Assembly: GCA_964392615.1 (NCBI GenBank)
Contig: CAYMRB010000002.1
Coordinates: 4,243-68,242, forward strand
Direction: 5' to 3'
DNA: 64,000 bases
Source: an uncultured Planctomycetia bacterium
GTDB lineage: Bacteria; Planctomycetota; UBA8108
The notes beneath the pieces were generated by a model. The model did no database searches and was not told the origin of the DNA. It saw only the letters and a program-made list of their open reading frames with translations. Shown piece after piece: positions 12,310-59,324 of the stretch (its first letter is position 1; the number at the start of each line of letters is the position of its first letter). A program made the translations under genes and the position numbers.

Positions 12310-12508
12310 GTTCGTTCCCCTCCCTACTGACTCCTGGTGTGATGAGAGATACGCAGAGATGCGGAATAGCAGGTCCGAGCTCTGGTTCGGGACTCGAGTG
12401 GGCGCGCATCCTATGGCAGATCCAGCAAAGCATCAACGGTCTGCGATGGGCCACACGGGAGTTGACTTTCCGTGCGTTCACGGAGATCGTGCCGCCAAGG
12501 AGGGCGTG

Positions 12509-13507: not shown

Positions 13508-13523
13508 TCATCTGCGACAGGAG

Positions 13524-15972: not shown

Positions 15973-15978
15973 CAGCCC

Positions 15979-22981: not shown

Positions 22982-23294
22982 GGTCTCGTCTTCGCTGCGG
23001 ACAGGGTGGTAGGGAATCCGACTCTCGACGATAGCAAATCTCGTCTCGCGAGGGAGCCTGCCAGGGGCGGCGTCCGGGGGCAGCGCGAGGTCGCGGCAGA
23101 TCTCCGGCGCGGCCGAGGGGAGGAAAGGGACTGGAAAAGTCCTTTTGGTCCTGCTTCGCCCGTGGCATCTTTGTGTGCTGTCGATACGGACAAAAGATTG
23201 GCCCTCGTCGTGCATTTCCGAGTTCTGGCAACGAAGAGCCCGGCTGGAATGGCCGCCATCGCCGAATCGCCCCTCCTCAACGGGCTGGTAAGCC

Positions 23295-24401
23295 ATGGAA
23301 ATCGAATCACCTGCGGGGACGAGCATCGCCAGGGTCGCGCGGCTGATCGAGGAGGATCTGCTGCGTCGGGATCTTCTGCCGGATCAGCGGTACTTGACCG
23401 CGCAGGAAGCCGGCGAGCGCTTCGGAGTCCACCCGCGCATGGCCAGCCGCGCGATGAACGTCCTCGCGGAACGCCAGCTGTTGGTGCGCCGCCGGGGTTC
23501 CGGCACGATCGTCGGGCCCGGACTGCGCGAGTATCGCAAGTTTCGACTGCGGTGTGTGCACGTGCTGGTCTCGGAGAGTCGCTACCATCGCGGGCTGTCC
23601 GGCATGCACCTGCTGGAGGCAGTGCAGCGCGAGCTGGTGGGCCACGGCGTTCAGTTCAACGTCCTCCCGGCCGCCGACGAGGAGTCGTACGTGGCCGAGC
23701 TGCTTCGCCGGGGCACGGAGGACGGATCGTTGGCCGGACTGATCGTCATCGGGTGTGGACGCGCGACGCAGGAGCTCGTCGACGCCCGCAGGGTGCCGGC
23801 GGTCGTCTTCGGCCACGTGTATCCGATGACGCGAGACCTGCCCTCGGTGGACCTGGACCAGGAGAGTGCGGGGAGACTGCTCGCGCGCTGTGTCCTGGAG
23901 CGGGGGCACCGGCGGCTCGCGGTGATGGCGAACGACGTCTGGCTTCCCGGGGACAACCTGTTCCTTGACGGTGTGCAGGCAGAAGCTGCAGGGCGCGCGA
24001 CGGTGCTCGTGCGAGGACTGCCTCTGGAGGAGAAAGTCCTGCGAAGCGAGTTGGGCGACCTGATGTCGTCACCCGAGCCGCCGACGGCGTTCATCTGCCG
24101 CATGCCGTCGCGGGCGCGAATCGTGCTGGACGCTATTCGAGCGCGTGGCGCCGCCGTGCCGGAGGAGTTCGACGTCGTGTTCGACCATCCGCACGAGAGC
24201 GAGCAGGATACCCAGCTAAGCGACGTCCTGCAGTGCCCTCACGTCTTCTGCGAGGAGACCGAGGAGAGCCAGGCGGCGATCGTGTCGCGCATGTTGCGAG
24301 CGCTCGTCGATGGGGAGCGAATCGACAGCTCCACGATCGAGCTGCCGGTGCGCCTTGTCGTCCCGGATCACCGAACGAATCCGCCTCCGGAGAGGAGATG
24401 A
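23295..24401 (+). CDS. Transcriptional regulator: GntR-type winged-helix N-terminus fused to a LacI/PBP1-like sugar-binding domain
   Basis: wHTH segment YLTAQEAGERFGVHPRMASRAMNVLAERQLLVRRRGSGTIV, followed by a periplasmic-binding-protein-like effector domain (GLIVIGCG, VPAVVFGH, RRLAVMAN). Its stop overlaps the next start (ATGA at 24398-24401). Confidence 0.7.
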   Translation: MEIESPAGTSIARVARLIEEDLLRRDLLPDQRYLTAQEAGERFGVHPRMASRAMNVLAERQLLVRRRGSGTIVGPGLREYRKFRLRCVHVLVSESRYHRGLSGMHLLEAVQRELVGHGVQFNVLPAADEESYVAELLRRGTEDGSLAGLIVIGCGRATQELVDARRVPAVVFGHVYPMTRDLPSVDLDQESAGRLLARCVLERGHRRLAVMANDVWLPGDNLFLDGVQAEAAGRATVLVRGLPLEEKVLRSELGDLMSSPEPPTAFICRMPSRARIVLDAIRARGAAVPEEFDVVFDHPHESEQDTQLSDVLQCPHVFCEETEESQAAIVSRMLRALVDGERIDSSTIELPVRLVVPDHRTNPPPERR

Positions 24402-26953
24402 CACGCAGGACCATGCGCAGCACTTCGTTTGCAACCCTATTGTGGATCGTCGCCGCGTCGGTCGAGGCGCAGCAGCCGCGGGAATCCGCGCCGAACGTCG
24501 TTCTGCTGATGGCGGACGATCTCGGCTACGGCGATGTCGGCTTCACGGGAAACGCGATCGTCCAGACGCCACACCTCGACCGGCTCGCGGCGCGTGGCGT
24601 CCGTCTCGATCGGTTCTACTCGGCCGCGCCGGTGTGCTCTCCGACACGCGCGAGCTGCGTGACGGGGCGCCATCCGTACCGCGTCGGCATTCCGTGGGCG
24701 TTCGCAGGCGCGCTACCCGCGCGCGAGACGACGATCGGCGAGGCGCTTGGCGCGCTCGGCTACCGCACCGCGCACTTCGGAAAGTGGCACCTCGGCCTCC
24801 TGAGCCCGTCGGTGAAGCAGGGCTACGCGCCGGGCGACCCGAGTCCGCAGGCCTACGCCCCGCCTTGGGAGCACGGCTTCGCGGAGTGCTTCAGCGTGCT
24901 CAACAGCATTCCGACCTTCGATCCGTACTACATGCACTCCGGCGAGTTCGGCACCGAGGGCTATCGATTCGTCCTGGACCGTGCCATTCGCGGCGGCGAG
25001 CGCCAGGGCGGATTCGTCTGGCGCGACCGCTTCTGGACCGGACCGGGGACCTTGGTCGACGAGTGGTTGACGGGGCCTGTTCCGGACCTGCTCGTCGATC
25101 GCACGCTCGAGTTGGCGCGCGAGTCGAAGGCCGCCAACCGGCCGTTTCTCGCGTTGGTGTGGTTCTCCACGCCGCACACCCCGGTCGTCGCCGGTCCGAA
25201 GCACCGAGCGCTCTACCCGGATCGATCGATCGAGGAGCAGCACTGGTACGGCTCGATCTCGGCGATGGACGAGGCGATCGGTCGACTCGCGGCGGGGCTC
25301 GAAAAGCTCGACGTCGTGGACGACACGCTTCTATGGTTCTGCAGCGACAACGGACCGACCTGGGTCCACGAGCACGGCACGACCGGTGGTCTGCGCGCCC
25401 GCAAGGGAAGCCTCTACGAAGGTGGGATCCGCGTGCCGGCCCTCGTGCACTGGCCCGCAGGGCTCGAGGGAGGACGGAGCGTCGACGTGCCGATCGTGAC
25501 GAGCGATCTGCTGCCGACCGCCTTGGCCGCCGCCGGATCCGGTCCGCCGCGTCACGTCGAGCTCGACGGAGAGGACGTGCTGCCGATCCTCGCGGGGAAG
25601 AGAAAACAGCGCACGCGGCCGATCGGATTCCAGTCGCCTCGGCTCGAAAGCAAGGCGCGCGACACGAAGGCGTGGATGCAGATCGGCGGCCTGCAGCTGG
25701 CCTGGATCGACGGCGACGAGAAGCTCGTCAGCATGGACGGCGGGAAGAGCTGGCAGCTCTACGATCTTCGCTTCGACCGCGCCGAGCAGAACGATGTGTC
25801 CGCGGAGCGACCGGAGCGCGTGACCGCGATGCGTCAGGCTCTCGAGAGCTGGCGCCGGCGGTGCGCCACGAGCGCGCGGGGCGAGGACGCGGTTCCCGTG
25901 CTCGTCGCGCGCGAGACGGCCGTTGTCGGCGTCGAACGCTCGCCTTCGTGCTACGCGCAGTTTCGTGAGGGCTGCGTCTCCGTGACGAACGCGGGACGCC
26001 TGGTCGTCGTCGCGCAGGGGCGCGAGAAGAGCGCGTGGAGCGATCGATCGGGCCAGGACCTCGTCTGCCGCTTCAGTGACGACGGGGGCGACACGTGGGA
26101 GCCGACCGTGCTCGTGGCCGAGACGGGCGATCACTCGATCTGCCCGAACGCGACCGTCTACGATCGCGAGACCGACACGATTCACGTGCTGTACAACGTG
26201 TTTCTCTGGGACTTCCGGAAGCCCGACTCGCGGCGTCCGATGAAGGGGCGCGAGTGTCGGCAGTTCCAGGTTCGCAGCTCCGACGGGGGCGAGACGTGGT
26301 CGAAGCCTCGCGACATCACCGCGATGCTCGGCAGCGGAGGCTACACGACGGTGTTCGGATCCGGCGAGGGCATTCAGCTGCGTCGCGGATCGCACGCGGG
26401 CCGGCTCGTCGTGCCCGGCGGATTCCAGAATCGATGGGGCAACCGCTCATTCTACAGCGACGATCACGGCGTGACGTGGCGGGTCGGAGAGATCGCGCCC
26501 CGCGATCGCGTCAAGGGTCTCAACGTGCGTCTCGAGAACAAGGTCGCCGAGCTCGCGGACGGCACGCTCGTCCAGAACGTTCGACACACGCCCGAGCGCG
26601 TGCGCGCGTTCTCGAAGGACGGAGGGCAGACGTGGACGCCGCAGGAGGTCGACCGTGGCCTGCCCGCGGTCAGCTGCAACGGCAGCCTGCTGTGCGTTCA
26701 GGACGAGGCGGGGCGCGACGTACTCCTGTGCTCGGTTCCAGCCGGCCCGAGACGCACGCACGGTACGGTCTACGCGAGCACCGATGGTGGGCGCACTTGG
26801 CCGCGACGCGCGATGCTCGTCGAGAGCGAGTTCGCGTACTCGAGCCTCGTCGAGCTGCAGGACGGACGCATCGCGCTCGTCTACGAGGCGCGCAACCACC
26901 GCGATCTGTACGTCCGACGCTTCCGGCCGGACGACGTCTTTGCTGGAGAGTGA
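24398..26953 (+). CDS. Bifunctional fusion: Cys-type sulfatase (N-terminal, about nt 24488-25867) plus BNR/Asp-box sialidase-like beta-propeller (C-terminal, about nt 25898-26950)
   Basis: Signal peptide, then sulfatase blocks NVVLLMADDLGYGD and CSPTRASCVTGRHP (the C-x-P-x-R formylglycine motif), GKWHLG and SDNGP. The C-terminal half has five Asp-boxes (SDDGGDTW, SSDGGETW, SDDHGVTW, SKDGGQTW, STDGGRTW). FREG stands where GH33 enzymes have FRIP. I trimmed the start from 24233 to 24398 (RBS GGAGAGGAG). Confidence 0.8.
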   Translation: MTRRTMRSTSFATLLWIVAASVEAQQPRESAPNVVLLMADDLGYGDVGFTGNAIVQTPHLDRLAARGVRLDRFYSAAPVCSPTRASCVTGRHPYRVGIPWAFAGALPARETTIGEALGALGYRTAHFGKWHLGLLSPSVKQGYAPGDPSPQAYAPPWEHGFAECFSVLNSIPTFDPYYMHSGEFGTEGYRFVLDRAIRGGERQGGFVWRDRFWTGPGTLVDEWLTGPVPDLLVDRTLELARESKAANRPFLALVWFSTPHTPVVAGPKHRALYPDRSIEEQHWYGSISAMDEAIGRLAAGLEKLDVVDDTLLWFCSDNGPTWVHEHGTTGGLRARKGSLYEGGIRVPALVHWPAGLEGGRSVDVPIVTSDLLPTALAAAGSGPPRHVELDGEDVLPILAGKRKQRTRPIGFQSPRLESKARDTKAWMQIGGLQLAWIDGDEKLVSMDGGKSWQLYDLRFDRAEQNDVSAERPERVTAMRQALESWRRRCATSARGEDAVPVLVARETAVVGVERSPSCYAQFREGCVSVTNAGRLVVVAQGREKSAWSDRSGQDLVCRFSDDGGDTWEPTVLVAETGDHSICPNATVYDRETDTIHVLYNVFLWDFRKPDSRRPMKGRECRQFQVRSSDGGETWSKPRDITAMLGSGGYTTVFGSGEGIQLRRGSHAGRLVVPGGFQNRWGNRSFYSDDHGVTWRVGEIAPRDRVKGLNVRLENKVAELADGTLVQNVRHTPERVRAFSKDGGQTWTPQEVDRGLPAVSCNGSLLCVQDEAGRDVLLCSVPAGPRRTHGTVYASTDGGRTWPRRAMLVESEFAYSSLVELQDGRIALVYEARNHRDLYVRRFRPDDVFAGE

Positions 26954-26955
26954 CC

Positions 26956-29853
26956 ATGAATGCGGCCGTTTCTCAGCGGGGGCTCGGATCGCGTCTCCCG
27001 ATCCTCGTAGTCGTCATGGCGCTCCTGACGTGTGGGCTCGGCTGCGAGCGGAGCGGCGTGACCGCGTACGGTCACGGGCTGCTCTGGGATGAGCTGCCGC
27101 CGCTTCCCGACGCGCACGGCTTCGCCGGTCCGTTCGCGGGCGTGGTCGATAGCGATCTGCTGGTCGCGGGCGGGGCGAACTTTCCGGACGGTGTTCCGTG
27201 GCATCTTACCGGCGAGGGCTGGACGTCGCCGAAGCGCTACCACGAACGGATCTTCGTGCTGGAGCAGGAGCGGGCTGCAGCCGGGGGGCCTCCTGCCTGG
27301 CGTGAGTCGACGATTCGACTGCCGCGACCAATCGCGTACGGTGTCAGCGTCGCGGTCCCGGGCGGCCTGCTGCTGATCGGCGGGGAGCGGCAAGATCACC
27401 GCCGTGACGACGAGAAGAGGGAGTACGCGTCGGAGCGGGTGCTATCGGACGAGGTCCTCCTCGTGCGTCGACGACCTGGCGGTAGCGACATCGAGATCGA
27501 GCCGGGATTCCCGCGCCTCCCCTCGCCGATCGCGTTTGCCGGTGGAGCACGGATCGGGAATCACGTCTACATCGTCGGAGGTGATGACGGCGACGGGGCG
27601 ACGCGCAGCTTCTGGAGGCTCGATCTGTCGCAGCGTCCCCTGTCCTCCGCGAAGAACGGAACGAAGAGCGACGACTCGTGGCGATGGGAGTCTCTGCCCG
27701 CATGGCCCGGCCGTCCTCGCGTGCTGCCGGTCGTCGCGGCTCAGAGCGATGGACGCGAGACGTGCCTGTACGTCGTCAGCGGTCGCGAGGTCGTCGACGG
27801 CGAGTTTCGCTTGCACACGGACGCCTACCGATTCGAGCCGAGCCGCGAGCGCTGGAATCGCCTCGCCGACGTGCGCGTAGCGGACGACACGGCACCACGC
27901 TGCGTCATGGGCGGGGCGGCAGCGGCGGTCGGCACGCACGAGATCCTCGTCGTCGGCGGGGCGCGCGGCGATGTTCTCCTGCGACACGCGAACGAGTTGC
28001 CGCGCGAGATCGCGACGGCGGAGAAGGCTGGAGACACGGCCCTCGCTGATCGCCTGCGCGCTGAACGACTCGCGCTCTACGATCGCCACGTCGGCTTCAG
28101 CCGGGATGTCCTGAGCTACAACGCCGTCACCGACCGGTGGAGCCGCGTCGGCCAATTCCCGGCTGGTGAGCGCGTGCCGTCAGGGCCGGCGGTCGACCCT
28201 GGCGAGCGAGTCGCTACGGGCGCGCCGGTGACGACCGTAGCGGTGCATTGGGAAGGCGCCGTCGTCGTGCCGAGCGGCGAGATCAGTCCCGGCGTCCGCA
28301 CGCCGAGGGTCTTCTCCGTCGCCGTCGATCGCGGCGCGGTCTCTTTTGGCGTCGCGAACTGGACCGTGCTGGCGTTGTATCTCGCGGTCCTCGTCTGGAT
28401 GGGCTTCTACTTCTCGAGACGCGAACGCTCGACTGAGGACTTCTTCACCGCCGGAGGACGCATACCGTGGTGGGCGGCCGGACTGAGCATCTTCGGGACG
28501 ATGCTCTCTGCGATCACCTACTTGTCGATTCCCGCGCGGGCGTACGGAACGAACTGGAGCTGGCTGATCCAGAACTTCGGCATCCTGGCCGTCGCGCCAA
28601 TCGTCGCTTTTCTGTTCTTGCCGTTCTTCCGCAAGCTGCGCGTTACGAGTGCCTACGAGTACCTCGAAGCGCGATTCAACGTCTCCGTGAGGCTGTTCGG
28701 GAGCGCGTCGTTCATCCTCTTCCAGTTCGGTCGCATGGGCATCGTCGTCCTGCTGCCAGCCCTGGCACTCGCGGCGGTCACCGGCATCGACATCCTGTTC
28801 TGCATCGTCGTGATGGGAGTCCTCAGCACGCTCTACACCGTCCTCGGAGGCATCGAGGCCGTCGTATGGACCGACGTGTTGCAGGTCGTCGTGCTCATCG
28901 GCGGTGCGATCGCGGCAGTCGTCATGATCCTCGTCAACGTAGGCGACGGTCTGCCGGAGCTGTTGGCCGCGGCGTGGGAGGCGGGAAAGGTCGATCTCGT
29001 CACGGAGTTCCACTCGCACGACCTGAGCTGGGCGAGGGACGGCGTGCTCGTCATCCTGCTCGGCGCGGTGTTCAACTCGATCTTGCCCTATATCAGCGAT
29101 CAGGCGGTGATTCAGCGCTACATGACGGTGGCCGACGAGCGACAGGCACGTCGCGCGATCTGGACCAACGGCATTCTCGCCGTGCCGGCGTCTCTCCTGT
29201 TCTTCGGCGTCGGAACCGCGCTCTGGGTGTTCTACCGCGCACGTCCGGAAGCGTTGATGCCGCTGGAGAAGCCCGATCAGATCTTTCCGTGGTTCATCGC
29301 CCTCGAGATGCCCGCCGGCGTCGCCGGTCTGGTGATCGCGGGCGTCTTCGCCGCGTCGATGTCCAGTCTCGACTCCAGCCTGCATTCGATCGCGACGGCG
29401 GTGACCACCGACTTCTATCGTCGCTTCCGACCCGATAGCTCCGAGGCGGCGCGACTCCGCTTCGCGCGCGTGCTGACGGTCTTCCTGGGTGTCATCGGGA
29501 CGCTGTCGGCCATCTTGATGGCGACGATGGAGATCAAGTACCTGTGGGACGTGTTCCTGTCCATCACCGGCTTGTTGCTCGGGACGCTGGGGGGCTTGTT
29601 CACCGTGGGGATCCTGTTACGTCGCTGCAGCTCGATCCACGCCTGGTTCGGTATCGTCGCGAGTGTCGCCGTTCTGTACCTGGCGCGGCATCACAGCGAC
29701 CTGCACTTCCTGCTCAACGGAGTGCTGTCGCTCGGAACCTGTTTCATCGTGGCGCTTCTGTCGAGCTACGCGCTGCCGACGCGCGGTGGAGACGCCGAGC
29801 TGACGGTCCGCTCGTTGGTACCGGGCCGCGATGAGACGAGAGAGTCCGGGTAG
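26956..29853 (+). CDS. Fusion of a NanM-like sialic acid mutarotase (Kelch beta-propeller, about nt 27067-28323) with a sodium:solute symporter (SSS family, about nt 28339-29850)
   Basis: The N-terminal half matches E. coli NanM/YjhT blocks as I recall them: GFAGPFAGVVDSDLLVAGGANF, IAYGVSVAVPGGLLLIGGE and PSGEISPGVRTPRV. The C-terminal half has about 13 TM helices, opening with the SSS block TEDFFTAGGRIPWWAAGLSIFGTMLSAITYLSIPA. I trimmed the start from 26095 to 26956. Confidence 0.8.
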   Translation: MNAAVSQRGLGSRLPILVVVMALLTCGLGCERSGVTAYGHGLLWDELPPLPDAHGFAGPFAGVVDSDLLVAGGANFPDGVPWHLTGEGWTSPKRYHERIFVLEQERAAAGGPPAWRESTIRLPRPIAYGVSVAVPGGLLLIGGERQDHRRDDEKREYASERVLSDEVLLVRRRPGGSDIEIEPGFPRLPSPIAFAGGARIGNHVYIVGGDDGDGATRSFWRLDLSQRPLSSAKNGTKSDDSWRWESLPAWPGRPRVLPVVAAQSDGRETCLYVVSGREVVDGEFRLHTDAYRFEPSRERWNRLADVRVADDTAPRCVMGGAAAAVGTHEILVVGGARGDVLLRHANELPREIATAEKAGDTALADRLRAERLALYDRHVGFSRDVLSYNAVTDRWSRVGQFPAGERVPSGPAVDPGERVATGAPVTTVAVHWEGAVVVPSGEISPGVRTPRVFSVAVDRGAVSFGVANWTVLALYLAVLVWMGFYFSRRERSTEDFFTAGGRIPWWAAGLSIFGTMLSAITYLSIPARAYGTNWSWLIQNFGILAVAPIVAFLFLPFFRKLRVTSAYEYLEARFNVSVRLFGSASFILFQFGRMGIVVLLPALALAAVTGIDILFCIVVMGVLSTLYTVLGGIEAVVWTDVLQVVVLIGGAIAAVVMILVNVGDGLPELLAAAWEAGKVDLVTEFHSHDLSWARDGVLVILLGAVFNSILPYISDQAVIQRYMTVADERQARRAIWTNGILAVPASLLFFGVGTALWVFYRARPEALMPLEKPDQIFPWFIALEMPAGVAGLVIAGVFAASMSSLDSSLHSIATAVTTDFYRRFRPDSSEAARLRFARVLTVFLGVIGTLSAILMATMEIKYLWDVFLSITGLLLGTLGGLFTVGILLRRCSSIHAWFGIVASVAVLYLARHHSDLHFLLNGVLSLGTCFIVALLSSYALPTRGGDAELTVRSLVPGRDETRESG

Positions 29854-29866
29854 AGGGGGGAGCACC

Positions 29867-32824
29867 ATGCTCAGAATCGGAACGGTCGTCGCGGCTCTCG
29901 TACTTCTTTGCGGGCCGACTTTGCCGGTTGCGGCGGGCCCGCCGAATGTCCTGCTGATCGTCTCGGAGGACAACGGCCCGGAGCTCGGCTGCTACGGCGA
30001 TCCCTACGCGCGTACGCCGATCCTCGACCAGCTCGCCGCCGAGGGCTGTCGCTTCGAACGGGCGTTCGTGCCGTACTCGGTGTGCAGTCCGTCGCGCGCG
30101 TGCTTCCTGACCGGGCTCTATCCGCATCAGAACGGGCACCTGGGGCTGGCGACGCATCGCTTCGCGATGTACCGAGCGTTCGCGTCGATGCCGAGCTTGC
30201 TGAAGAAGGCCGGCTATCGCACGGGGCTCATCGGCAAGCTCCACGTCAACCCGGAGTCGGCGTTTCCATTCGACTTCCGAGCCATCCGGTCCGCGAACTT
30301 CAACAAGCGCAACGTCGTCGAGTATGCGAAGGCGGCGTCCGAGTTCTTCCGCGCCTCGGACGCGCCGTTCTTCCTGTCGATCAACTATCCCGACGCGCAC
30401 TTTCCGCTCTTGCGCCAGCAGTTCGGCGTGCCGGCGACTCCGATCCGCGCCGAGAGCGTGCGGCCGCTGCCCTGGGTCGGCGCCGACTCCGAACGGCTGA
30501 GGAGGTTCACCGCCGACTACTACAACTGTCTGGCGCGTCTCGACGTCGGCGTCGGACTCTTGCTCGACGAGCTCGAGCGATGCGGCAAGGCGGCCGACAC
30601 CCTCGTCATCTACATCGGCGATCACGGCGCGCAGTTCTCGCGTGGCAAGTGCTCTGTCTACGAGGCGGGGTTGCGCATTCCGATGATCGTGCGCTGGCCG
30701 GGACGCGCGCTGCCCGGTCGCGTGCGACGGGAGCTCGTCTCGACAGTCGACCTGCTGCCGACCGTGCTCGAGGCGACGGACCGTCCGGTCCCTGAGACGT
30801 TGTCCGGTCGCTCTCTCGTTCCCCTCCTGCGTGGAGAGATGCCGAGCTGGCGCGAGCACATCTTCGCGGTGACGACCGGGGCAGCGCCCTCGATCTCGTT
30901 CGTGCAGCTCTCCGTGCGTGACGATCGCTACAAACTGATCTCGTCGCCCCAGGCCGGCCGGGAGAGCCTGTTCGCCGCGGCGTACGCGAGCCGCTTCAAC
31001 GTCCACTTCGCGGCCGGAACGTCGGCCGAGGAGATTCGCGCCGCGTCGCCGGTCGTTCAGGACGCGTATCGACGATTTCTCCATCCGCCGCGGTACGAGC
31101 TCTACGACCTGCACGACGATCCGCACGAGTTCCTCGACCTCGCGCCCGACTCGAAGCATGCGGCCGTGAAGAAGCGTCTGATCGCGACGCTCGAACGCTG
31201 GCAGAACGAGACCCGCGACCCGTTCGGTGACCCCGAGATGCTCGAGCTCTTCGTGCGCGAACAGGACGCTGCGCGGTCGACCGACTATCGACGAAAGAAG
31301 GGCTTCCGCTGGCAGCACATCGATCGATTCGCCGCGTGGCGCGACGGGCGGTCCGACACTTCCACGCTGCGGCTCGGCCGTCCGTTCGGCAGCCATATGG
31401 TCGTGCAACGCGACAAGCCGATTGTCATTTGGGGGACGGCGGACGCCGGTCGCGAGTTGAGAGTACGGTTCGGCGTTCACGCCGCCCGCACGACCGCGGG
31501 CGCCGACGGAAGCTGGCGTGTCAAGCTCGACGCGCTGCCGGCGAGCTCGACGCCGCGTGAGCTCGTCGTCAGGTCTGGTGCCGAGGTCATGCGTCTCGAG
31601 GACGTTCTCGTCGGTGACGTCTGGCTCTGCGCGGGCCAGTCGAACATGCGTTTCACCGTGCGGCAGTCCGCAGGTGCCGCCGAGGCGATCGCTGCAGCGG
31701 CCGATCCCGAACTCCGCCTGCTGGACTATGCGGGGAGCATCTACCCGTCGCGACGCAAGTACCCGTTGGACGTCCTGCGACGCGTGACCGCGGAGAGCTA
31801 CTACTCGACCCGCGGGTGGCAGCGTTGCTCACCCGACACGGTTCCGACGTTCTCGGCCGTCGCGTACACCTTCGGCGCGGCGCTGCGCCGCGAGCTCGGC
31901 GTGCCGATCGGGCTCGTGCACAATGCGGTCGGCGGCGTGCCGATGGAGGCGTACATTCCGGCCGAGTTCCTCGCGGGCGATCCACAGCTCGCGCCGCTCC
32001 TCGTGCACTGGTACGAGAACCCCGAGTATCCCGCGTGGTGTCGACAGCGCGGTGCCTTCAATCTGAGCGCGTGGCTCGCCGCGCCGGAGCCCCCCGCACC
32101 GCATCACCCGTTCGAGCCCGGATTCCTGTTCGATGCCGGCATGCGGCCGTTCGCGGCCTTTCCGCTGCGCGGCTTCACGTGGTATCAGGGCGAGTCGAAC
32201 GCGACGGAAGACGGCGCTCGCGGCGCACCGGTGGCTGCCGCGGTGAACCGCCGCAAGTTGACGGCGCTCATCGAGAGCTGGCGTCGTGCGTGGGACGATC
32301 CGGAACTGCCGTTCCTGTTCGCTCAGCTGCCGGGGCTCGACCGTCCGTGGACGGTCTTCCGGGAGGTGCAGGCGCAGGTCGCGCGCGACACGAAGAACGT
32401 CCACATGGCGGTGACCATCGACGTCGGCCATCCGACGAACGTGCATCCGCGTCGCAAGAAGCCGGTGGGGGAGCGCCTCGCGCGTCTTGCCCTCGCCCAT
32501 GTTCACGGCAAGGACATCGTCGCCGGCGGACCCGTGCTTCGGGCGCACGAAACCGTCGGCGCAGAGATCCGGGTGTCGTTCGACCAGGTCGGAGGAGGCC
32601 TGGCGTCACGGGACGGCCAGGCGTTGCGCGAGTTCACGATCGCGGGTGACGATCGAGTCTTCCACCCAGCGACCGCGGCGATTCGCGGCGACCGCGTCGT
32701 GGTGTCGAGCGCGAAGGTGCAGCGCCCCGTCGCGGTGCGCTACGCGTGGTGCAGCGATCCGGACGTCAACCTCGTCAATGCCGAGCAGCTGCCGGCCGCA
32801 CCGTTTCGGACGGACCCGTGGTAG
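29867..32824 (+). CDS. Bifunctional fusion: Cys-type sulfatase (SGSH-like, about nt 29939-31240) plus sialate O-acetylesterase (SASA/DUF303, about nt 31364-32821)
   Basis: Sulfatase blocks NVLLIVSEDNGPELGCYG, CSPSRACFLTGLYPHQNG and YIGDHG. Esterase blocks FGSHMVVQRDKPIVIWG, VWLCAGQSNM, HNAVGGVPMEAYIP and FTWYQGESNA. The start is taken at MLRIGT (29867, preceded by GAGGGGGGA); the track start at 29831 is also possible. Confidence 0.8.
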   Translation: MLRIGTVVAALVLLCGPTLPVAAGPPNVLLIVSEDNGPELGCYGDPYARTPILDQLAAEGCRFERAFVPYSVCSPSRACFLTGLYPHQNGHLGLATHRFAMYRAFASMPSLLKKAGYRTGLIGKLHVNPESAFPFDFRAIRSANFNKRNVVEYAKAASEFFRASDAPFFLSINYPDAHFPLLRQQFGVPATPIRAESVRPLPWVGADSERLRRFTADYYNCLARLDVGVGLLLDELERCGKAADTLVIYIGDHGAQFSRGKCSVYEAGLRIPMIVRWPGRALPGRVRRELVSTVDLLPTVLEATDRPVPETLSGRSLVPLLRGEMPSWREHIFAVTTGAAPSISFVQLSVRDDRYKLISSPQAGRESLFAAAYASRFNVHFAAGTSAEEIRAASPVVQDAYRRFLHPPRYELYDLHDDPHEFLDLAPDSKHAAVKKRLIATLERWQNETRDPFGDPEMLELFVREQDAARSTDYRRKKGFRWQHIDRFAAWRDGRSDTSTLRLGRPFGSHMVVQRDKPIVIWGTADAGRELRVRFGVHAARTTAGADGSWRVKLDALPASSTPRELVVRSGAEVMRLEDVLVGDVWLCAGQSNMRFTVRQSAGAAEAIAAAADPELRLLDYAGSIYPSRRKYPLDVLRRVTAESYYSTRGWQRCSPDTVPTFSAVAYTFGAALRRELGVPIGLVHNAVGGVPMEAYIPAEFLAGDPQLAPLLVHWYENPEYPAWCRQRGAFNLSAWLAAPEPPAPHHPFEPGFLFDAGMRPFAAFPLRGFTWYQGESNATEDGARGAPVAAAVNRRKLTALIESWRRAWDDPELPFLFAQLPGLDRPWTVFREVQAQVARDTKNVHMAVTIDVGHPTNVHPRRKKPVGERLARLALAHVHGKDIVAGGPVLRAHETVGAEIRVSFDQVGGGLASRDGQALREFTIAGDDRVFHPATAAIRGDRVVVSSAKVQRPVAVRYAWCSDPDVNLVNAEQLPAAPFRTDPW

Positions 32825-32884
32825 CGAGCCAAGGCGATGGAGACACGTCTCTGCTTCCAAAGGACACCAACGAGGAAACCTGAC

Positions 32885-35839: not shown

Positions 35840-38326
35840 TCAGCAGTCAGCGTTGGTCGGCGTCGGCGGAGGACCGCCCATGAAGAGGAAGCCGAGCAGC
35901 GCGATCGCGTCGCTCACGTCGAGCGCTCCGTCGTGATTCGTGTCGGCGGCGTCGGCGCAGGCGATCGGTTCGCCGCCGTCGAAGAGCGCGAGAAGCACGA
36001 AGACCGCGTCGGAGATGTCGACCGCTCCGTCGCCGTTCCCGTCCCCGCGCAGGGCCGTCGCGACGGGCGGTGACCACGCTCCGGTCGTGTCGTACCGCAC
36101 GTGGCGGATGTCGACTCGATAACCGTCTCCGAACGATCCTCGTGTGTAGTCGCCGAAGAGCAGGCGAGGGTCGTCTCGCGTCGAGTTGTAGCCCGCTCCA
36201 GCGGAGGGAGTCAGTCGAATGCCGTCGCGCCAGACGTGGTAGGCGCCAGCGGCTCTGACGTGGGCGACGCGATAGTCGTGGAACGCACCGTCCTCGTTGT
36301 CGCCATGCTCGGCCTCGAACGTCGTCGAGCGAGTCGCTCGAGCGTGGATCTCGACGAGGATCAGATCGTCACCCGTTCCGAGCCATAGAGCGAAGCCCGC
36401 GGCGATGTCGTCGAAGCGCAGGCGGATCTCGACGGTCCAATCGCCGCCGTTCGCCGTGTTCCACGTCGTCGCGCCACCATCCGCTGTCGACGCCGTGCCG
36501 TTGAGCACCGCGTTGCCGGTGTCGGTCGTGTTGACGAGGCGCAGCGAGCCGTCGGCGTTCCGCGATAGCTCCACTCCGCCGTCGTCGGACCAGCCGTTCC
36601 GGTAGCTCGTGCCGTCCCAGATCGCGCCGGCGTCGAACTGACGTGTGAACGTCGCCGAGTCCCTCAGGGCGAGCATCGTGCCGTCACCGCGTGCCTCGAC
36701 GTCCATGCCCAGCGCACGCGCGATCTCGCGAGCGATGTGACGCTCGCCGGCACCGTTCGGGTGGACGTCGTCGTAGGTCAACAAGTCGGCGTCGGTGCCG
36801 TCCGTCACCTCGACGTGCAGGACGGCCGAAGTCGCCGTCGACCACTCGGCGACAGCAGTCGCGAGGAGCGCGTTGTACGCATCGATTCTGTCGTTGAGCG
36901 CCGGAAAGGCGCGGTGGCCCGAGCCGACGTACGGCAGCGATGTCAGGTAGATCGTGCAGTGCGGGTTCGCGTCTTGGAGCTGCGACGTCATTGTTCGGAC
37001 GTCCGCGAGCACCTGGTTCGGGAGGACCTCGACGATGTCGTTCGTGCCGATCATCACGACGGCCGTGTCCGGCGTGTACGTCGTGCCGATGTTGCCCGTG
37101 TCGCTCGCGGAGGGGTCGGGGTAGGGGACCCAATTCCCCGCCGTGTCGACCTCGTACTGCGCGGTCTGGCCGGTCCAGTTCCGCAACGTTCCCTCGCCGC
37201 GGTTGTTGCCGCGCCGGCCGGATGGCAGTGGCAGCCGGCCCGATTCCCAGTAGGCGCGCCAGCCCCAGTGACCATCGTGGACGTTCGAGAACGCCCGCCC
37301 GCGGTAGTCGGGAGTCGACACGGCTCCGCGCGCATACGCGCCGGTCACCGAGCCGACGAACGTCCACGCAGCGCCATGATCCGCGAGGTGCTTGAAGAGC
37401 TCGTACCGATAGCTCGGGTGCCCGGCGCCTCCCTGCGTGATCGAATCGCCGATCACGACGAGGTCGCCGTAATCGCGATCGACGACGCCGGCATCGATCA
37501 ATGCCCATGCGAATCGCTGTCCGACGACCCGCTTCGCTTCCTTGTCGAAGTGGAGGTCGTCGTGCAGTCGCGACCGGAGATCGAGATTGTCGACATAGGT
37601 GATGGTCGGATCGGTTGCGGCCAGGGCCGATTGGCGGGAGCGGACGAGGTCCCGCGTCGCGCCGGCGGCGGCGATGCCCCCGATGACGACGTGCATGCCC
37701 GTCGCTCGCGGTAGATCGGCTCGCAGGTTCGCCGCCAGCGCGGCAAGACGGTCGCCGGCGAGAGAGGCTTCGGAGGCGCTATCGCTCTCGCCCTGAAGAT
37801 ACAGGCAGCCGACGATCTCGAACGTGTGTCCGTCCGCGATCAACGCGGCCGTCGCGCGCTCTACCGTCGCGATGATCTCGTCGTACATGTGGCCGCCCGT
37901 CGACCGCGACCAGTGTGCGTTGCCGCCGCCGCCGCGACTGACCTTGATGATGCCGAAGTCGCGCACTCCGGACCGGTACAGCGTGCGCGCACAGCCGAAC
38001 TCGGGGCCCCAATGCGTCGCGCTGCCGGGATAGAAACCTCCCTGCTGCTCGCGCAACGTCGTGAACGCGCCGCCAGAGTCACCGATCGTCGTCGACGCGT
38101 TCGCGACGTTGCGCCAGAAGAACCAGACCTTGGCGTCCACCGGATCGACTCCGGGTGACGGATCGGGCTGGTTCGGCTCGTTTGTCGTCCCGAGGGAGTT
38201 CGACTGTCCGGTCAGGAGGAACAGGCGGTAGTGCTCGGCGCGGGCGAGCCGGACAGGCGTCGCAACGAGCGCGAGGGCAGCGAGGACGACGCCGACGGCG
38301 CGAGTGGTGCAGCGCGAAGCGTTCAT
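35840..38326 (-). CDS. Four-part secreted protein: SASA/DUF303-like esterase, SGNH/GDSL hydrolase, a divergent copy of the repeat module, and a dockerin-like tail
   Basis: aa 33-280: LLTGQSNSLG ... YLQGESDS (sialate O-acetylesterase-like). aa 286-540: VVIGDSITQGG ... MIGTNDI ... DDVHPN (SGNH blocks I, III and V). aa 556-754: WTVEIRLRF, ALWLGTGDDLILVEI, EHGDNEDGAFHDYRVAH, YHVWRDGIRL, VRYDTTGAWSPP. aa 759-828: dockerin-like tail. Confidence 0.75.
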   Translation of the reverse strand: MNASRCTTRAVGVVLAALALVATPVRLARAEHYRLFLLTGQSNSLGTTNEPNQPDPSPGVDPVDAKVWFFWRNVANASTTIGDSGGAFTTLREQQGGFYPGSATHWGPEFGCARTLYRSGVRDFGIIKVSRGGGGNAHWSRSTGGHMYDEIIATVERATAALIADGHTFEIVGCLYLQGESDSASEASLAGDRLAALAANLRADLPRATGMHVVIGGIAAAGATRDLVRSRQSALAATDPTITYVDNLDLRSRLHDDLHFDKEAKRVVGQRFAWALIDAGVVDRDYGDLVVIGDSITQGGAGHPSYRYELFKHLADHGAAWTFVGSVTGAYARGAVSTPDYRGRAFSNVHDGHWGWRAYWESGRLPLPSGRRGNNRGEGTLRNWTGQTAQYEVDTAGNWVPYPDPSASDTGNIGTTYTPDTAVVMIGTNDIVEVLPNQVLADVRTMTSQLQDANPHCTIYLTSLPYVGSGHRAFPALNDRIDAYNALLATAVAEWSTATSAVLHVEVTDGTDADLLTYDDVHPNGAGERHIAREIARALGMDVEARGDGTMLALRDSATFTRQFDAGAIWDGTSYRNGWSDDGGVELSRNADGSLRLVNTTDTGNAVLNGTASTADGGATTWNTANGGDWTVEIRLRFDDIAAGFALWLGTGDDLILVEIHARATRSTTFEAEHGDNEDGAFHDYRVAHVRAAGAYHVWRDGIRLTPSAGAGYNSTRDDPRLLFGDYTRGSFGDGYRVDIRHVRYDTTGAWSPPVATALRGDGNGDGAVDISDAVFVLLALFDGGEPIACADAADTNHDGALDVSDAIALLGFLFMGGPPPTPTNADC
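35843..36052 (-). other. Dockerin-like double EF-hand module (C-terminus of the multi-esterase)
   Basis: RGDGNGDGAVDISDAVFVLLALFDGGEPIACADAADTNHDGALDVSDAIALLGFLFMGGPPPTPTNADC. Confidence 0.75.
36065..36661 (-). repeat. Divergent tenth copy of the ~200-aa repeat module (lacks the CC pair)
   Basis: It has the same block order as the copies at 46.6-55.8 kb (see the finding), but with lower identity. Confidence 0.55.
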
Positions 38327-38345
38327 GGTCGTCTGTGGCTTCGAG

Positions 38346-46511: not shown

Positions 46512-46563
46512 ACGAACGATGTCGGCGCGCAGCGCCACTCGACGGATTGAAGGGTCTGAGAGG

Positions 46564-51231: not shown

Positions 51232-51316
51232 CGAACGAGGAGAACGAGCCGCGGCGCCTTCTTCCAGCGGGCGCCCGGCTCGCAATCCCTTCCGAATGAT
51301 CCCGAAAGGAAACGAC

Positions 51317-59239: not shown

Positions 59240-59324
59240 ACTCGTAGCTCGCCTCCTGCCGCGAGATGCCGGGCCCGAGCCATCGGGTCGAACGTTGCGC
59301 TGCCCTGACCTGCCGAGAATCGAC

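What the first reader, a model, noticed from the sequence alone, without database searches (positions are those of the whole stretch)
24398..26953. Single polypeptide fusing a Cys-type sulfatase to a BNR/Asp-box sialidase-like propeller
The 851-aa protein has a complete S1 sulfatase domain (DDLGYGD, CSPTRASCVTGR, GKWHLG) followed, without a frame break, by a five-Asp-box propeller (SDDGGDTW, SSDGGETW, SDDHGVTW, SKDGGQTW, STDGGRTW). I am not aware of a characterised sulfatase-sialidase fusion. Coupling the two activities would make sense for substrates where sulfate blocks sialidase action or the reverse. Examples are 6-sulfo-sialyl glycans of mucins and the O-sulfated sialic acids of echinoderms and other marine invertebrates. 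One caveat applies. At the position of the GH33 FRIP motif the sequence reads QFREG, so the propeller could be a binding domain rather than a catalytic one.
Basis: partly seen in the sequence, partly recalled or inferred. Interest (0 to 1): 0.7.

Follow-up and report, generated by a model that had tools for sequence, protein, structure and literature searches.

The report
Sulfatase–sialidase fusion in sialic-acid operon
A marine planctomycete encodes one secreted protein that joins an apparently active sulfatase to an apparently active sialidase inside a sialic-acid feeding operon. Related genomes link the same modules again and again, which points to a so-far undescribed pathway for eating sulfated sialic acids.

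Summary
ORF 24398-26953 (+) encodes an 851-aa protein with a signal peptide, an S1 formylglycine sulfatase domain and a GH33 six-bladed propeller, joined by a linker of about 5-10 residues.

Both domains keep every catalytic residue.

The fusion is not an artefact. It recurs at 62-78% identity in independent assemblies, and AlphaFold2 models it as a compact two-domain protein (pLDDT 92, pTM 0.89).

The gene sits in a tight operon with a NanM-SSS sialic-acid transporter, a second sulfatase fused to a sialate O-acetylesterase-like (SASA) module, further sialidases, GlcNAc 2-epimerase and a NanA-like lyase.

The propeller belongs to a distinct GH33 clade with [FY]RE and WSDRSGQD motifs. Across phyla this clade is repeatedly adjacent or fused to two sulfatase families, to SASA esterases and to canonical sialidases.

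Free-standing orthologues of the sulfatase domain lie inside compact nan operons in Bacteroidota and Akkermansiaceae.

Best reading: a bifunctional enzyme for sulfated sialoglycans, with the sulfatase probably acting on O-sulfated sialic acid itself. No microbial enzyme with that activity has been reported. Biochemistry is untested.

The parts
24398..26953 (+). Whole gene: 851-aa sulfatase-GH33 fusion protein (stop codon included)
   Evidence: ATGA overlap with the upstream gene and a GGAGAGGAG Shine-Dalgarno sequence.
24398..24472 (+). Predicted Sec signal peptide (aa 1-25, MTRRTMRSTSFATLLWIVAASVEA|QQ)
   Evidence: Read from the sequence: basic n-region, hydrophobic core, VEA cleavage motif. 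AF2 pLDDT is below 62 for aa 1-30. This is an inference; no signal-peptide predictor was run.
24473..25882 (+). S1 formylglycine-dependent sulfatase domain ('SulfA', aa 26-495), including the C-terminal subdomain and helix 472-493
   Evidence: Pfam PF00884 and PF16347. PDB phmmer: 7STT 1e-54, and S1_19 and S1_16 sulfatases about 1e-50. Foldseek TM 0.80 to S1_19 6PSM.
24635..24649 (+). CSPTR formylglycine motif (C80 becomes FGly; R84)
   Evidence: C80 is conserved in 60 of 62 and R84 in 60 of 62 SulfA-family sequences.
24515..24520 (+). Metal-binding D40 and D41. The other active-site residues are K129 (24782-24784), H131 (24788-24790), H260 (25175-25177), D317/N318 (25346-25351) and K336 (25403-25405).
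   Evidence: These are conserved in 61-62 of 62 family members and invariant in the fusion homologues that cover them. Their catalytic roles are assigned from established knowledge of S1 sulfatases.
25877..25906 (+). Short inter-domain linker (aa about 494-503)
   Evidence: AF2 secondary structure shows helix 472-493, then strand 499-503, which already belongs to the propeller. pTM 0.89 indicates a fixed domain arrangement.
25907..26950 (+). GH33 six-bladed beta-propeller of the 'FRE clade' (aa 504-851)
   Evidence: Pfam BNR_2 and BNR_3. PDB 1EUR 4e-33. Foldseek TM 0.78 to 1EUR. At least 44% identity to clade members against about 30% to canonical GH33 domains.
25958..25972 (+). QFREG, the clade's version of the FRIP motif. 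R523 (25964-25966) is the first Arg of the triad. E524 replaces the canonical Ile.
   Evidence: R523 is kept in 115 of 116 and E524 in 113 of 116 clade sequences.
26036..26059 (+). WSDRSGQD loop. D549 (26042-26044) is the acid/base Asp. R550 is specific to the clade.
   Evidence: Both D549 and R550 are kept in 116 of 116 sequences.
26534..26536 (+). E713, partner of the nucleophile Tyr (M. viridifaciens E260)
   Evidence: 116 of 116.
26582..26584 (+). R729, second Arg of the triad (M. viridifaciens R276)
   Evidence: 116 of 116.
26753..26755 (+). R786, third Arg of the triad (M. viridifaciens R342)
   Evidence: 116 of 116.
26837..26839 (+). Y814, nucleophile Tyr (M. viridifaciens Y370), in the FAYSS motif
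   Evidence: 114 of 116. The titles of PDB entries 1WCQ and 2BER identify Y370 as the nucleophilic active-site Tyr.
26075..26800 (+). Span holding the five Asp boxes (26075-26098, 26276-26299, 26456-26479, 26612-26635, 26777-26800)
   Evidence: Pfam PF02012.
23295..24401 (+). Upstream regulator (GntR-type HTH plus periplasmic-binding-protein sensor domain). Its stop overlaps the target's start.
   Evidence: The same regulator type sits next to nan genes in L033 and L035.
26956..29853 (+). NanM (sialic acid mutarotase, Kelch) fused to a sodium:solute symporter. It starts 2 nt after the target's stop.
   Evidence: Pfam PF24996 and PF00474. NCBIfam sss and N-acetylneuraminate epimerase. Start shown.
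29831..32824 (+). Second fusion in the operon: SGSH-like S1 sulfatase ('SulfB') fused to a roughly 500-aa SASA (sialate O-acetylesterase family) module
   Evidence: The SulfB best PDB hit is human SGSH 4MHX at 6e-54, followed by S1_8 structures.
35840..45585 (-). Divergent block on the minus strand: SASA+GDSL esterase (35840-38326), tandem GH33 with BNR_assoc_N (38346-41690), GlcNAc 2-epimerase (41542-42762), third sulfatase 'SulfC' (42759-44933; its start is probably over-called) and a URO-D/MtaA-like protein (44467-45585)
58821..60263 (+). DHDPS-family protein, a candidate N-acetylneuraminate lyase (its start is probably over-called by about 170 aa)
   Evidence: It is 43-47% identical to the DHDPS genes in related nan loci.

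Best explanation
The gene encodes a secreted or periplasmic bifunctional enzyme of a sialic-acid harvesting operon in a marine member of the Planctomycetaceae.

The C-terminal GH33 propeller is an active retaining exo-sialidase of a distinct clade. It releases sialic acid from sulfated sialoglycoconjugates.

The N-terminal formylglycine sulfatase removes a sulfate ester that would otherwise block release, uptake or catabolism. The most likely target is an O-sulfate on the sialic acid itself (Neu5Ac/Neu5Gc 8-O- or 9-O-sulfate, as in echinoderm and vertebrate glycans).

The desulfated Neu5Ac is then handed to the translationally coupled NanM-SSS mutarotase/transporter. A NanA-like lyase and GlcNAc 2-epimerase encoded in the same window complete its breakdown. 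The neighbouring sulfatase-SASA fusion and the SASA/GDSL esterase remove further decorations.

Shown here: the architecture, the catalytic residue sets, the folds, recurrence of the fusion, and the gene-neighbourhood and fusion network.

Inferred: both activities, the substrate, the position of the sulfate, and the order of action.
For: 1. Both active sites are intact and conserved.

2. The AF2 model has pLDDT 92.2 and pTM 0.89, with a linker of about 5-10 residues. Foldseek places the two halves with S1_19/S1_16 sulfatases (TM 0.80) and with M. viridifaciens sialidase (TM 0.78).

3. The operon is tightly packed: regulator | fusion | NanM-SSS | SulfB-SASA, with overlapping or 2-nt junctions. 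The window also holds further GH33 genes, a SASA/GDSL esterase, AGE and a DHDPS-family gene, and no galactosidase or hexosaminidase lies between 23 and 46 kb.

4. Free-standing SulfA orthologues (48-56% identity) lie inside nan loci in 5 of 6 contexts examined.
- L035, Akkermansiaceae: regulator, DHDPS, NanM-SSS, AGE, GDSL, SulfA, BNR_2.
- L033, Puteibacter caeruleilacunae: SulfA lies among SASA/GDSL, DHDPS, NanM-SSS and AGE.
- L032: GntR, DHDPS, SSF, SusCD, SulfA.
- L031 also carries nan genes.
- L036: the SASA gene overlaps the SulfA start.

5. Twenty-six species-level loci were fetched by the propeller motif alone. Fifteen carry a SulfA or SulfB orthologue (46-70% identity), either adjacent or fused.

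6. All pairwise fusions exist: SulfA-prop (target), SulfB-prop (L011, L012, L015, P0247), SulfB-SASA (window), SASA-prop (L020), GH33-SASA-prop (L024). P0243 carries GH33-SASA-SulfB-prop in a single 2026-aa chain.

7. SASA is a sialic-acid-specific decoration remover. Its repeated fusion and overlap with these sulfatases suggests that they work on the same sugar.

8. O-sulfated and O-sulfated/O-acetylated sialic acids are documented in sea urchin gametes and in vertebrates (PMC13634767, PMC9304399).
Against: - No biochemistry exists for any member of SulfA, SulfB or the FRE-clade propeller.
- The nearest characterised sulfatases act on Gal-4-sulfate in carrageenan or on Gal/GalNAc-4S (S1_19, S1_16; about 27% identity), not on sialic acid.
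- One SulfA orthologue (L034) has no sialic-acid genes nearby.
- Some related loci do carry GH20, GH109 or GH2 genes (L031, L036), so action on the underlying glycan is not excluded.
- No formylglycine-generating enzyme gene lies in the window, although two flank the homologue in L001.
- Sulfatases are very numerous in these phyla, which raises the background chance of adjacency. That does not explain adjacency of the same two orthologous families.
- The SulfAtlas subfamily could not be assigned.
Confidence: 0.45

Rival explanations
1. The protein is the same bifunctional enzyme, but the sulfatase acts on the sugar beneath or beside the sialic acid. Candidate groups are Gal-3S/4S/6S, GalNAc-4S/6S or GlcNAc-6S in sulfated sialyl-LacNAc, sialyl-Lewis or mucin-type glycans. 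It would act either after the sialidase uncaps the chain, or before it, to relieve sulfate hindrance of the sialidase.
For: The closest sequence and structure relatives are Gal-4S-specific S1_19 and S1_16 sulfatases. Every carbohydrate sulfatase characterised so far on host glycans acts on Gal, GalNAc or GlcNAc (PMC10017367). L031 and L036 carry GH20, GH109 or GH2 genes near SulfA.
Against: The window operon and the compact nan loci L032, L033 and L035 contain no galactosidase or hexosaminidase that could use a desulfated underlying glycan. The sulfatases are repeatedly fused or overlapped with SASA esterases, which act on sialic acid itself. Identity to S1_16 and S1_19 enzymes is only about 27%, too low to carry over specificity.
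Confidence: 0.3
2. The substrate is not an animal-type sialoglycan. It would be a sulfated microbial or algal polymer carrying a related nonulosonic or ulosonic acid (Kdn, legionaminic or pseudaminic acid). The FRE-clade propeller would be specialised for that sugar, and the sulfatases would strip the polymer.
For: The FRE clade is distinct from canonical GH33 (about 30% identity, with clade-specific invariants E524 and R550). It is often fused to a canonical GH33, which suggests a complementary rather than redundant specificity. The host organisms are marine polysaccharide degraders.
Against: The loci carry GlcNAc 2-epimerase, NanM and a NanA-like lyase, the pathway for N-acetylneuraminic acid via ManNAc. 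They also carry SASA esterases typical of O-acetyl-Neu5Ac.
Confidence: 0.1
3. The propeller is a non-catalytic, lectin-like module that targets the sulfatase to sialylated or other glycans.
For: The FRIP motif is altered to FREG. A non-catalytic BNR protein does exist in the same operon: 32837-34150 lacks the equivalents of R68, D92 and R276.
Against: All six catalytic residues are present in the target, and each is kept in at least 114 of 116 clade sequences. The clade occurs mostly as free-standing proteins of about 390-420 aa annotated as exo-alpha-sialidase. A pure binding role would not hold the acid/base Asp, the Glu and the nucleophile Tyr invariant.
Confidence: 0.05
4. The fusion is an assembly or sequencing artefact that joins two adjacent genes.
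For: Unfused SulfA | FRE-propeller neighbours do exist, in L011.
Against: The same continuous ORF is found in at least nine clusters at 62-100% identity, from the JGI, ENA, NCBI and Logan sources, and in four species-level MAGs. The junction sequence is conserved. AF2 packs the two domains confidently.
Confidence: 0.02

Closest known systems
Micromonospora viridifaciens sialidase (GH33; PDB 1EUR, 1EUS, 2BER, 1WCQ)
   Same: It has the same six-bladed propeller (Foldseek TM 0.78; phmmer E 4e-33; about 30% identity). The Arg triad, the Asp acid/base, the Glu/Tyr nucleophile pair and the Asp boxes all align.
   Different: The target has [FY]RE[GQ] in place of FRIP, and a clade-specific WSDRSGQD loop with an invariant Arg after the catalytic Asp. 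It has no C-terminal galactose-binding module and instead carries an N-terminal sulfatase. Its specificity is unknown.
S1_19 and S1_16 carbohydrate sulfatases (PsS1_19B 6PSM/6PRM, ZgCgsA 9HH2, AMOR S1_16 9FO1) and the Pedobacter yulinensis sulfatase PyuS (7STT)
   Same: They share the formylglycine-sulfatase fold, and the target keeps the S1 catalytic motifs (CxPxR, the metal-binding Asp/Asn pairs, the catalytic Lys/His). TM is about 0.8 and E is 1e-50 to 1e-54.
   Different: Identity is only 23-28%. Those enzymes remove 4-O-sulfate from galactose in carrageenan, and the natural substrate of PyuS is unknown. The target's family (SulfA) is embedded in sialic-acid loci. Its SulfAtlas subfamily was not assigned.
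Formosa agariphila GH78-S1 'alpha-L-rhamnosidase/sulfatase' (PDB 6HR5)
   Same: It is a precedent for a single polypeptide that joins a glycoside hydrolase to an S1 sulfatase for stepwise breakdown of a sulfated marine glycan. The molecule name appears. The biology is from my own knowledge of the ulvan pathway.
   Different: It has a different GH family (GH78, not GH33), a different sulfatase subfamily and a different substrate (ulvan). It has no link to sialic acid.
Sialate O-acetylesterases of nan clusters (SASA/GDSL; NanS/EstA type)
   Same: The role is analogous: an accessory enzyme in a sialic-acid locus removes a decoration from sialic acid so that sialidase, transporter and lyase can act. 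SASA modules are fused to, or overlap, the same sulfatase families and the same propeller clade.
   Different: They are esterases for acetyl groups, not sulfate, with an unrelated fold and mechanism.
Canonical Bacteroides-type sialidases (BNR_assoc_N + BNR_2; e.g. BTSA 4BBW, and window gene 38346-41690)
   Same: They share the GH33 catalytic machinery and the same operon context.
   Different: They are only about 30% identical and keep the FRIP motif (YRIP). In L016, L017, L024 and P0243 they are fused to the FRE-clade propeller, so the two types are probably not redundant.

Membership tests
S1 formylglycine-dependent sulfatases (Pfam PF00884; SulfAtlas family S1) | C/S-x-P-x-R motif carrying the formylglycine precursor | tested here: met
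   C80-S-P-T-R84. C80 and R84 are each conserved in 60 of 62 SulfA-family sequences.
S1 formylglycine-dependent sulfatases (Pfam PF00884; SulfAtlas family S1) | Metal-binding Asp/Asp and Asp/Asn pairs, plus the catalytic Lys/His residues | tested here: met
   D40, D41, K129, H131, H260, D317, N318 and K336 are present and conserved in 61-62 of 62 sequences. Roles are assigned from knowledge of arylsulfatase A-type active sites.
S1 formylglycine-dependent sulfatases (Pfam PF00884; SulfAtlas family S1) | Alkaline-phosphatase-like alpha/beta fold with a C-terminal subdomain | tested here: met
   In the AF2 model pLDDT is mostly above 90 over aa 31-495. Foldseek target-normalised TM is 0.77-0.81 to S1_19, S1_16 and PyuS structures.
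S1 formylglycine-dependent sulfatases (Pfam PF00884; SulfAtlas family S1) | A maturation enzyme (FGE or anSME) available in the organism | not testable with these tools
   No FGE-sulfatase domain was found in the 64-kb window, and the rest of the genome is not available. Two FGE genes flank the 72%-identical homologue in L001.
S1 formylglycine-dependent sulfatases (Pfam PF00884; SulfAtlas family S1) | Assignment to a numbered S1 subfamily, which would predict specificity | not testable with these tools
   SulfAtlas HMMs are not available. The best solved relatives (S1_19, S1_16, PyuS) are only 23-28% identical, so this is probably a different subfamily.
GH33 exo-alpha-sialidases | Six-bladed beta-propeller with Asp-box repeats | tested here: met
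   There are five Asp boxes and matches to Pfam BNR_2, BNR_3 and BNR. The AF2 model is all-beta over aa 499-842. TM is 0.78 to 1EUR.
GH33 exo-alpha-sialidases | Arginine triad that binds the sialic-acid carboxylate | tested here: met
   R523, R729 and R786 align with M. viridifaciens R68, R276 and R342. They are kept in 115-116 of 116 clade sequences.
GH33 exo-alpha-sialidases | Nucleophile Tyr with its Glu partner, and an acid/base Asp | tested here: met
   Y814, E713 and D549 align with Y370, E260 and D92. They are kept in 114-116 of 116 sequences.
GH33 exo-alpha-sialidases | Canonical F/Y-R-I-P motif | tested here: not met
   The motif reads Q-F-R-E-G. Only the aromatic residue and the Arg are kept, and Ile-Pro is replaced by Glu-Gly/Gln throughout the clade. 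The functional residue of the motif, the Arg, is present, so this marks a subclade and does not exclude membership.
GH33 exo-alpha-sialidases | Hydrolysis of alpha-sialosides | not testable with these tools
   This needs an enzyme assay.
Sialic-acid (nan) utilisation locus | Co-located sialidase, sialic-acid transporter, N-acetylneuraminate lyase and ManNAc/GlcNAc epimerase | tested here: met
   The window holds NanM-SSS at 26956-29853, AGE at 41542-42762 (NCBIfam AcylGsamEpipAGE, E 2e-116), a DHDPS-family gene at 58821-60263, GH33 genes and SASA esterases. That the DHDPS-family gene is a NanA lyase is inferred from family and context only.

The most novel reading that the evidence does not exclude
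SulfA (this protein's N-terminal domain), and probably SulfB as well, would be the first sialate O-sulfatases. The [FY]RE/WSDRSGQD GH33 clade would be a sialidase adapted to sulfated or otherwise decorated sialic acids. Together with SASA esterases, and possibly a corrinoid/URO-D-like O-demethylase system, they would form a widespread marine pathway for decorated sialic acids (8/9-O-sulfo, O-acetyl and 8-O-methyl Neu5Ac/Neu5Gc of echinoderms and vertebrates) that has not been described.
Probability: 0.4. Interest if true: 0.8.

Novelty: new variant of a known kind. Interest (0 to 1): 0.62.

Why it matters
O-sulfated sialic acids have been known for decades in echinoderm gametes and were recently reported as widespread in vertebrates. 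The sulfotransferases were identified only in 2022. A 2023 review states that no microbial sulfatase acting on sulfated sialic acid has been reported (PMC10017367).

This locus and its relatives give concrete candidate genes that can be cloned:
- two sulfatase families;
- one distinct sialidase clade;
- a cultured carrier organism, Puteibacter caeruleilacunae.

If confirmed, the enzymes would fill the catabolic side of sialic-acid sulfation. They would provide analytical reagents for sulfo-sialoglycans, a need noted in PMC13634767. They would also explain how marine Planctomycetota, Verrucomicrobiota, Lentisphaerota and Bacteroidota recycle decorated animal sialoglycans.

If the sulfatase instead acts on neighbouring Gal or GlcNAc, the protein is still an uncharacterised GH33-S1 bifunctional enzyme, useful for sulfated sialyl-Lewis and mucin-type glycans.

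Tried and rejected
- **Frameshift or assembly artefact.** Rejected: the fusion recurs in independent assemblies.
- **Non-catalytic propeller.** Rejected as unlikely after mapping the catalytic residues against 1EUR and across 116 clade members.
- **Other BNR domains of the window in the same clade.** They are not. The tandem GH33 propellers are only about 30% identical, and BNR437 lacks catalytic residues.
- **S1 subfamily from solved structures.** Inconclusive. 7STT (PyuS) has no known natural substrate, and S1_19 and S1_16 are only about 27% identical.
- **Literature.** Searches for a sulfatase-sialidase fusion, a GH33-sulfatase multimodular enzyme, 'sialate/sialic acid sulfatase' and PDB 7LBU found nothing relevant.
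- **Large mixed alignment A3.** It mis-registered most propeller-only rows, so only 10 rows were usable for propeller conservation. I rebuilt a propeller-only alignment. A3 still gave a confident AF2 model.
- **Model coordinates.** They are not exposed, so the distance between active sites and their relative orientation could not be measured.
- **FGE in the window.** None found.
- **One failed call.** One search failed because a search term was too short.

Full report
**1. The observation**

The window has about 67% G+C. Frame +2 is open from 24233 to 26953. The ATG at 24398 follows a GGAGAGGAG Shine-Dalgarno sequence and overlaps the stop codon of the upstream gene as ATGA. The product is 851 aa.

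Pfam finds Sulfatase (aa 32-380, E 6e-44) with the SGSH_C subdomain, and BNR_2 (aa 548-825, E 2e-29). The N-terminus (MTRRTMRSTSFATLLWIVAASVEA|QQ) reads as a Sec signal peptide. That is my inference from the sequence.

**2. It is not an artefact**

A search of 5.8 billion proteins returned nine clusters with the same full-length architecture. They are 62-100% identical, cover 87-100% of the query, and come from JGI, ENA, NCBI and Logan data. The junction sequence is conserved among them.

A motif scan of one genome per GTDB species found the fusion in four Planctomycetaceae MAGs, L005-L008. One homologue, P0003/L004, carries an additional N-terminal sulfatase.

In the library of 50%-identity representatives, all these collapse into a single cluster represented by P0001.

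AlphaFold2 on a 134-sequence alignment gives mean pLDDT 92.2 and pTM 0.89. A helix ends at residue 493 and the first propeller strand starts at 499, so this is a compact two-domain protein with a very short linker.

**3. Are both halves catalytic?**

*Propeller.*
- The best solved relative is the Micromonospora viridifaciens sialidase (1EUR, E 4e-33; Foldseek TM 0.78).
- In the HMMER alignment, and in an independent MAFFT alignment that includes canonical GH33 domains, R523, D549, E713, R729, R786 and Y814 align with R68, D92, E260, R276, R342 and Y370.
- These residues are invariant in the fusion homologues. Each is present in at least 114 of 116 members of the wider clade.
The Arg is retained and only Ile-Pro is replaced.

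*Sulfatase.*
- C80/R84 (the formylglycine motif), D40/D41, K129/H131, H260, D317/N318 and K336 are present. They are conserved in 60-62 of 62 family sequences.
- The fold matches S1_19 and S1_16 carrageenan sulfatases and the P. yulinensis sulfatase (E 1e-50 to 1e-54, TM about 0.8, 23-28% identity).
- No PDB chain covers both halves (query-normalised TM at most 0.44).

**4. Genomic context in the window**

| Coordinates | Strand | Product |
|---|---|---|
| 23295-24401 | + | GntR-HTH/PBP regulator |
| 24398-26953 | + | Sulfatase-GH33 fusion (the finding) |
| 26956-29853 | + | NanM mutarotase fused to a sodium:solute symporter; starts 2 nt after the fusion's stop |
| 29831-32824 | + | SGSH-like sulfatase (SulfB; best PDB hit human SGSH, 6e-54) fused to a roughly 500-aa SASA module |
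| 32837-34150 | + | BNR protein lacking catalytic residues |
| 35840-38326 | - | SASA+GDSL esterase |
| 38346-41690 | - | BNR_assoc_N plus two catalytic GH33 propellers |
| 41542-42762 | - | GlcNAc 2-epimerase (NCBIfam E 2e-116) |
| 42759-44933 | - | Third sulfatase (SulfC) |
| 44467-45585 | - | URO-D/MtaA-like protein |
| 45810-46511 | + | GntR/FCD regulator |
| 58821-60263 | + | DHDPS-family protein, a candidate NanA |

No galactosidase or hexosaminidase lies between 23 and 46 kb. This is a sialic-acid utilisation locus enriched in enzymes that remove decorations.

**5. The propeller belongs to a distinct, sulfatase-associated GH33 clade**

Proteins at least 44% identical to the target's propeller share [FY]RE[GQ], WSDRSGQD and FAYSS. 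Canonical GH33 domains, including those in the same window, are only about 30% identical. Most members are free-standing proteins of about 390-420 aa from uncultured marine Planctomycetota, Verrucomicrobiota, Lentisphaerota (Victivallales), Bacteroidota, Fimbriimonadia and others.

Twenty-six species-level loci were retrieved by the propeller motif alone. Fifteen contain an orthologue of SulfA (50-70% identity) or SulfB (46-64%). SulfB is the immediate neighbour in L014, L018, L019, L025, L026 and L027.

The fusion architectures found are:

| Architecture | Where |
|---|---|
| SulfA-prop | target, L005-L008 |
| Sulfatase-SulfA-prop | P0003/L004 |
| SulfB-prop | L011, L012, L015, P0247 |
| SASA-prop | L020 |
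| GDSL-prop | P0121 |
| Canonical GH33-SASA-prop | L024 |
| Prop-canonical GH33 | L016, L017 |
| BNR_2-prop | L019 |
| Canonical GH33-SASA-SulfB-prop, one 2026-aa chain | P0243 |
| A third sulfatase type fused to a more distant GH33 propeller | P0318 |

L011 shows the unfused SulfA | propeller gene pair. L014 (Victivallales) and L016 (Planctomycetaceae) contain essentially the window's gene set as separate genes.

SulfA and SulfB share only about 25-35% identity, so sulfatase-propeller fusion arose at least twice.

**6. The sulfatase family is itself a nan-locus component**

I examined the contexts of six free-standing SulfA orthologues (48-56% identical). Five lie in sialic-acid loci:

| Locus | Organism | Gene content |
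|---|---|---|
| L031 | Bacteroidota PUL | BNR_2, two sulfatases, SusCD, SulfA, AGE, NanM-SSS, DHDPS, GH20, PhyH, GDSL, SASA |
| L032 | Bacteroidota | GntR, DHDPS, SSF, SusCD, SulfA |
| L033 | Puteibacter caeruleilacunae, a named Bacteroidota species | AGE, regulator, URO-D/corrinoid genes, SulfA, URO-D, GDSL+SASA, DHDPS, NanM-SSS, AGE |
| L035 | Akkermansiaceae MAG | regulator, DHDPS, NanM-SSS, AGE, GDSL, SulfA, BNR_2 |
| L036 | Bacteroidetes | a SASA/GDSL gene overlapping the SulfA start |
| L034 | unknown | counter-example: only another sulfatase nearby |

Several of these loci contain no glycosidase other than sialidases.

**7. Mechanism proposed**

Shown here: two intact active sites, a rigid fusion, a secretion signal, operon coupling to a sialic-acid transporter, and a cross-phylum network of adjacency and fusion. 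That network links two sulfatase families, SASA esterases, this GH33 clade and canonical sialidases.

Inferred: the protein acts in the periplasm or at the cell surface on sulfated sialoglycoconjugates. The propeller cleaves the sialoside. The sulfatase removes a sulfate that would block cleavage, transport by NanM-SSS, or lyase/epimerase catabolism.

I favour sulfate on the sialic acid itself (8-O or 9-O), at about 0.45. The reasons are:
- SulfA sits in compact nan operons with no enzymes for the underlying glycan.
- These sulfatases are fused or overlapped with SASA esterases, which act on sialic acid.
- Such sugars, including doubly sulfated/acetylated forms, exist in marine animals.

The main rival, at about 0.3, is desulfation of neighbouring Gal, GalNAc or GlcNAc. 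It is supported by the nearest characterised relatives (Gal-4S sulfatases) and by all precedent for host-glycan sulfatases.

The order of action is unknown.

**8. Clade-specific residues**

E524, which follows the first Arg, and R550, which follows the acid/base Asp, replace hydrophobic residues of canonical GH33. They may simply pair with each other behind the active site. Alternatively they may contact the ligand. Influenza neuraminidase has analogous R118-E119 and D151-R152 dyads, as I recall from memory. Neither possibility was tested.

**9. Comparison with what is known, and novelty**

Each domain is a member of a well-known family, and the membership tests were met except for the literal FRIP motif. 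GH-sulfatase fusions have a precedent in the GH78-S1 enzyme of the ulvan pathway (PDB 6HR5).

What I could not find described is a GH33-S1 fusion, this GH33 clade, or any sialate sulfatase. A 2023 review says none has been reported, and phrase searches found nothing.

I therefore rate it a new variant of a known kind. There is a substantial chance (about 0.4) that it marks a truly new enzymatic activity and pathway.

**10. Limits**

- There is no biochemistry.
- There is no SulfAtlas or CAZy subfamily assignment.
- There are no model coordinates.
- The context survey is small: 6 SulfA loci and 26 propeller loci.
- Sulfatases are abundant in these phyla.
- The source organism is known only by similarity to Planctomycetaceae MAGs.

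Noticed in passing
window 29831-32824 (+): This is a second sulfatase fusion in the same operon: an SGSH-like (S1_8-like) sulfatase joined to a roughly 500-aa SASA sialate O-acetylesterase-family module (997 aa). Its sulfatase family (SulfB) is the most frequent neighbour or fusion partner of the FRE-clade propeller in other phyla.
   Followed up: partly
window 26956-29853 (+): NanM (Kelch sialic-acid mutarotase) is fused to a sodium:solute symporter and starts 2 nt after the target's stop. The same fusion recurs in L013, L014, L016, L031, L033 and L035.
   Followed up: partly
window 44467-45585 (-); L033 4728-9492 and 12349-13392: A URO-D/MtaA-like methyltransferase-family gene sits next to the sulfatases. 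In Puteibacter caeruleilacunae the SulfA gene is surrounded by three URO-D genes plus B12-binding, Met_synt_B12 and CobW genes. This may be a corrinoid-dependent O-demethylase system for 8-O-methyl sialic acids, which is speculative. URO-D-like genes also occur in L006, L014, L016 and L024.
   Followed up: no
window 32837-34150 (+): A 437-aa BNR_2 protein in the operon lacks the equivalents of the first and second triad Arg and the acid/base Asp (His, gap and Glu at those columns). It is probably a non-catalytic propeller.
   Followed up: partly
window 38346-41690 (-): An 1114-aa protein carries BNR_assoc_N plus two GH33 propellers. Both have complete catalytic residue sets. Neither belongs to the FRE clade (about 30% identity).
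   Followed up: partly
P0243 (2026 aa, metagenomic protein; no locus fetched): A single chain carries BNR_assoc_N/canonical GH33, SASA, SulfB and an FRE-clade propeller. All four module types of this pathway are fused together.
   Followed up: partly
L004 803-1759 and 3816-4595; L031 18720-19505: PhyH (Fe/2-oxoglutarate dioxygenase family) genes recur inside these sialic-acid loci. Their role is unknown. They might modify or demodify Neu5Gc or other decorated sialic acids.
   Followed up: no
window 42759-44933 (-) and 58821-60263 (+): The start codons are probably over-called. The sulfatase domain of SulfC begins about 185 aa into the ORF, and the long version overlaps the URO-D-like gene by about 470 nt. 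The DHDPS domain begins about 170 aa into its ORF.
   Followed up: no
window 46519-51231 and 51296-54772 (+): Two very large ORFs (about 1570 and 1158 aa) with coding-type GC3 have no Pfam match at all. They lie downstream of a GntR/FCD regulator and upstream of a CotH/LTD/CHB_HEX_C protein (54800-59239).
   Followed up: no
L001 3102-9148: Next to the 72%-identical fusion homologue lie two FGE-sulfatase (formylglycine-generating enzyme) genes and a 1287-aa protein that combines a SulfB-type sulfatase with a Peptidase_C1 and a lectin-like domain.
   Followed up: no
window 3-3098 (-) and 17944-20910 (-): Two proteins of about 1000 aa carry the HZS_alpha (hydrazine synthase alpha middle) domain. 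An FG-GAP repeat protein (21059-23326) and a sugar ABC transporter block (12098-16923) lie close by. These look like typical planctomycete surface or periplasmic proteins, unrelated to the finding.
   Followed up: no
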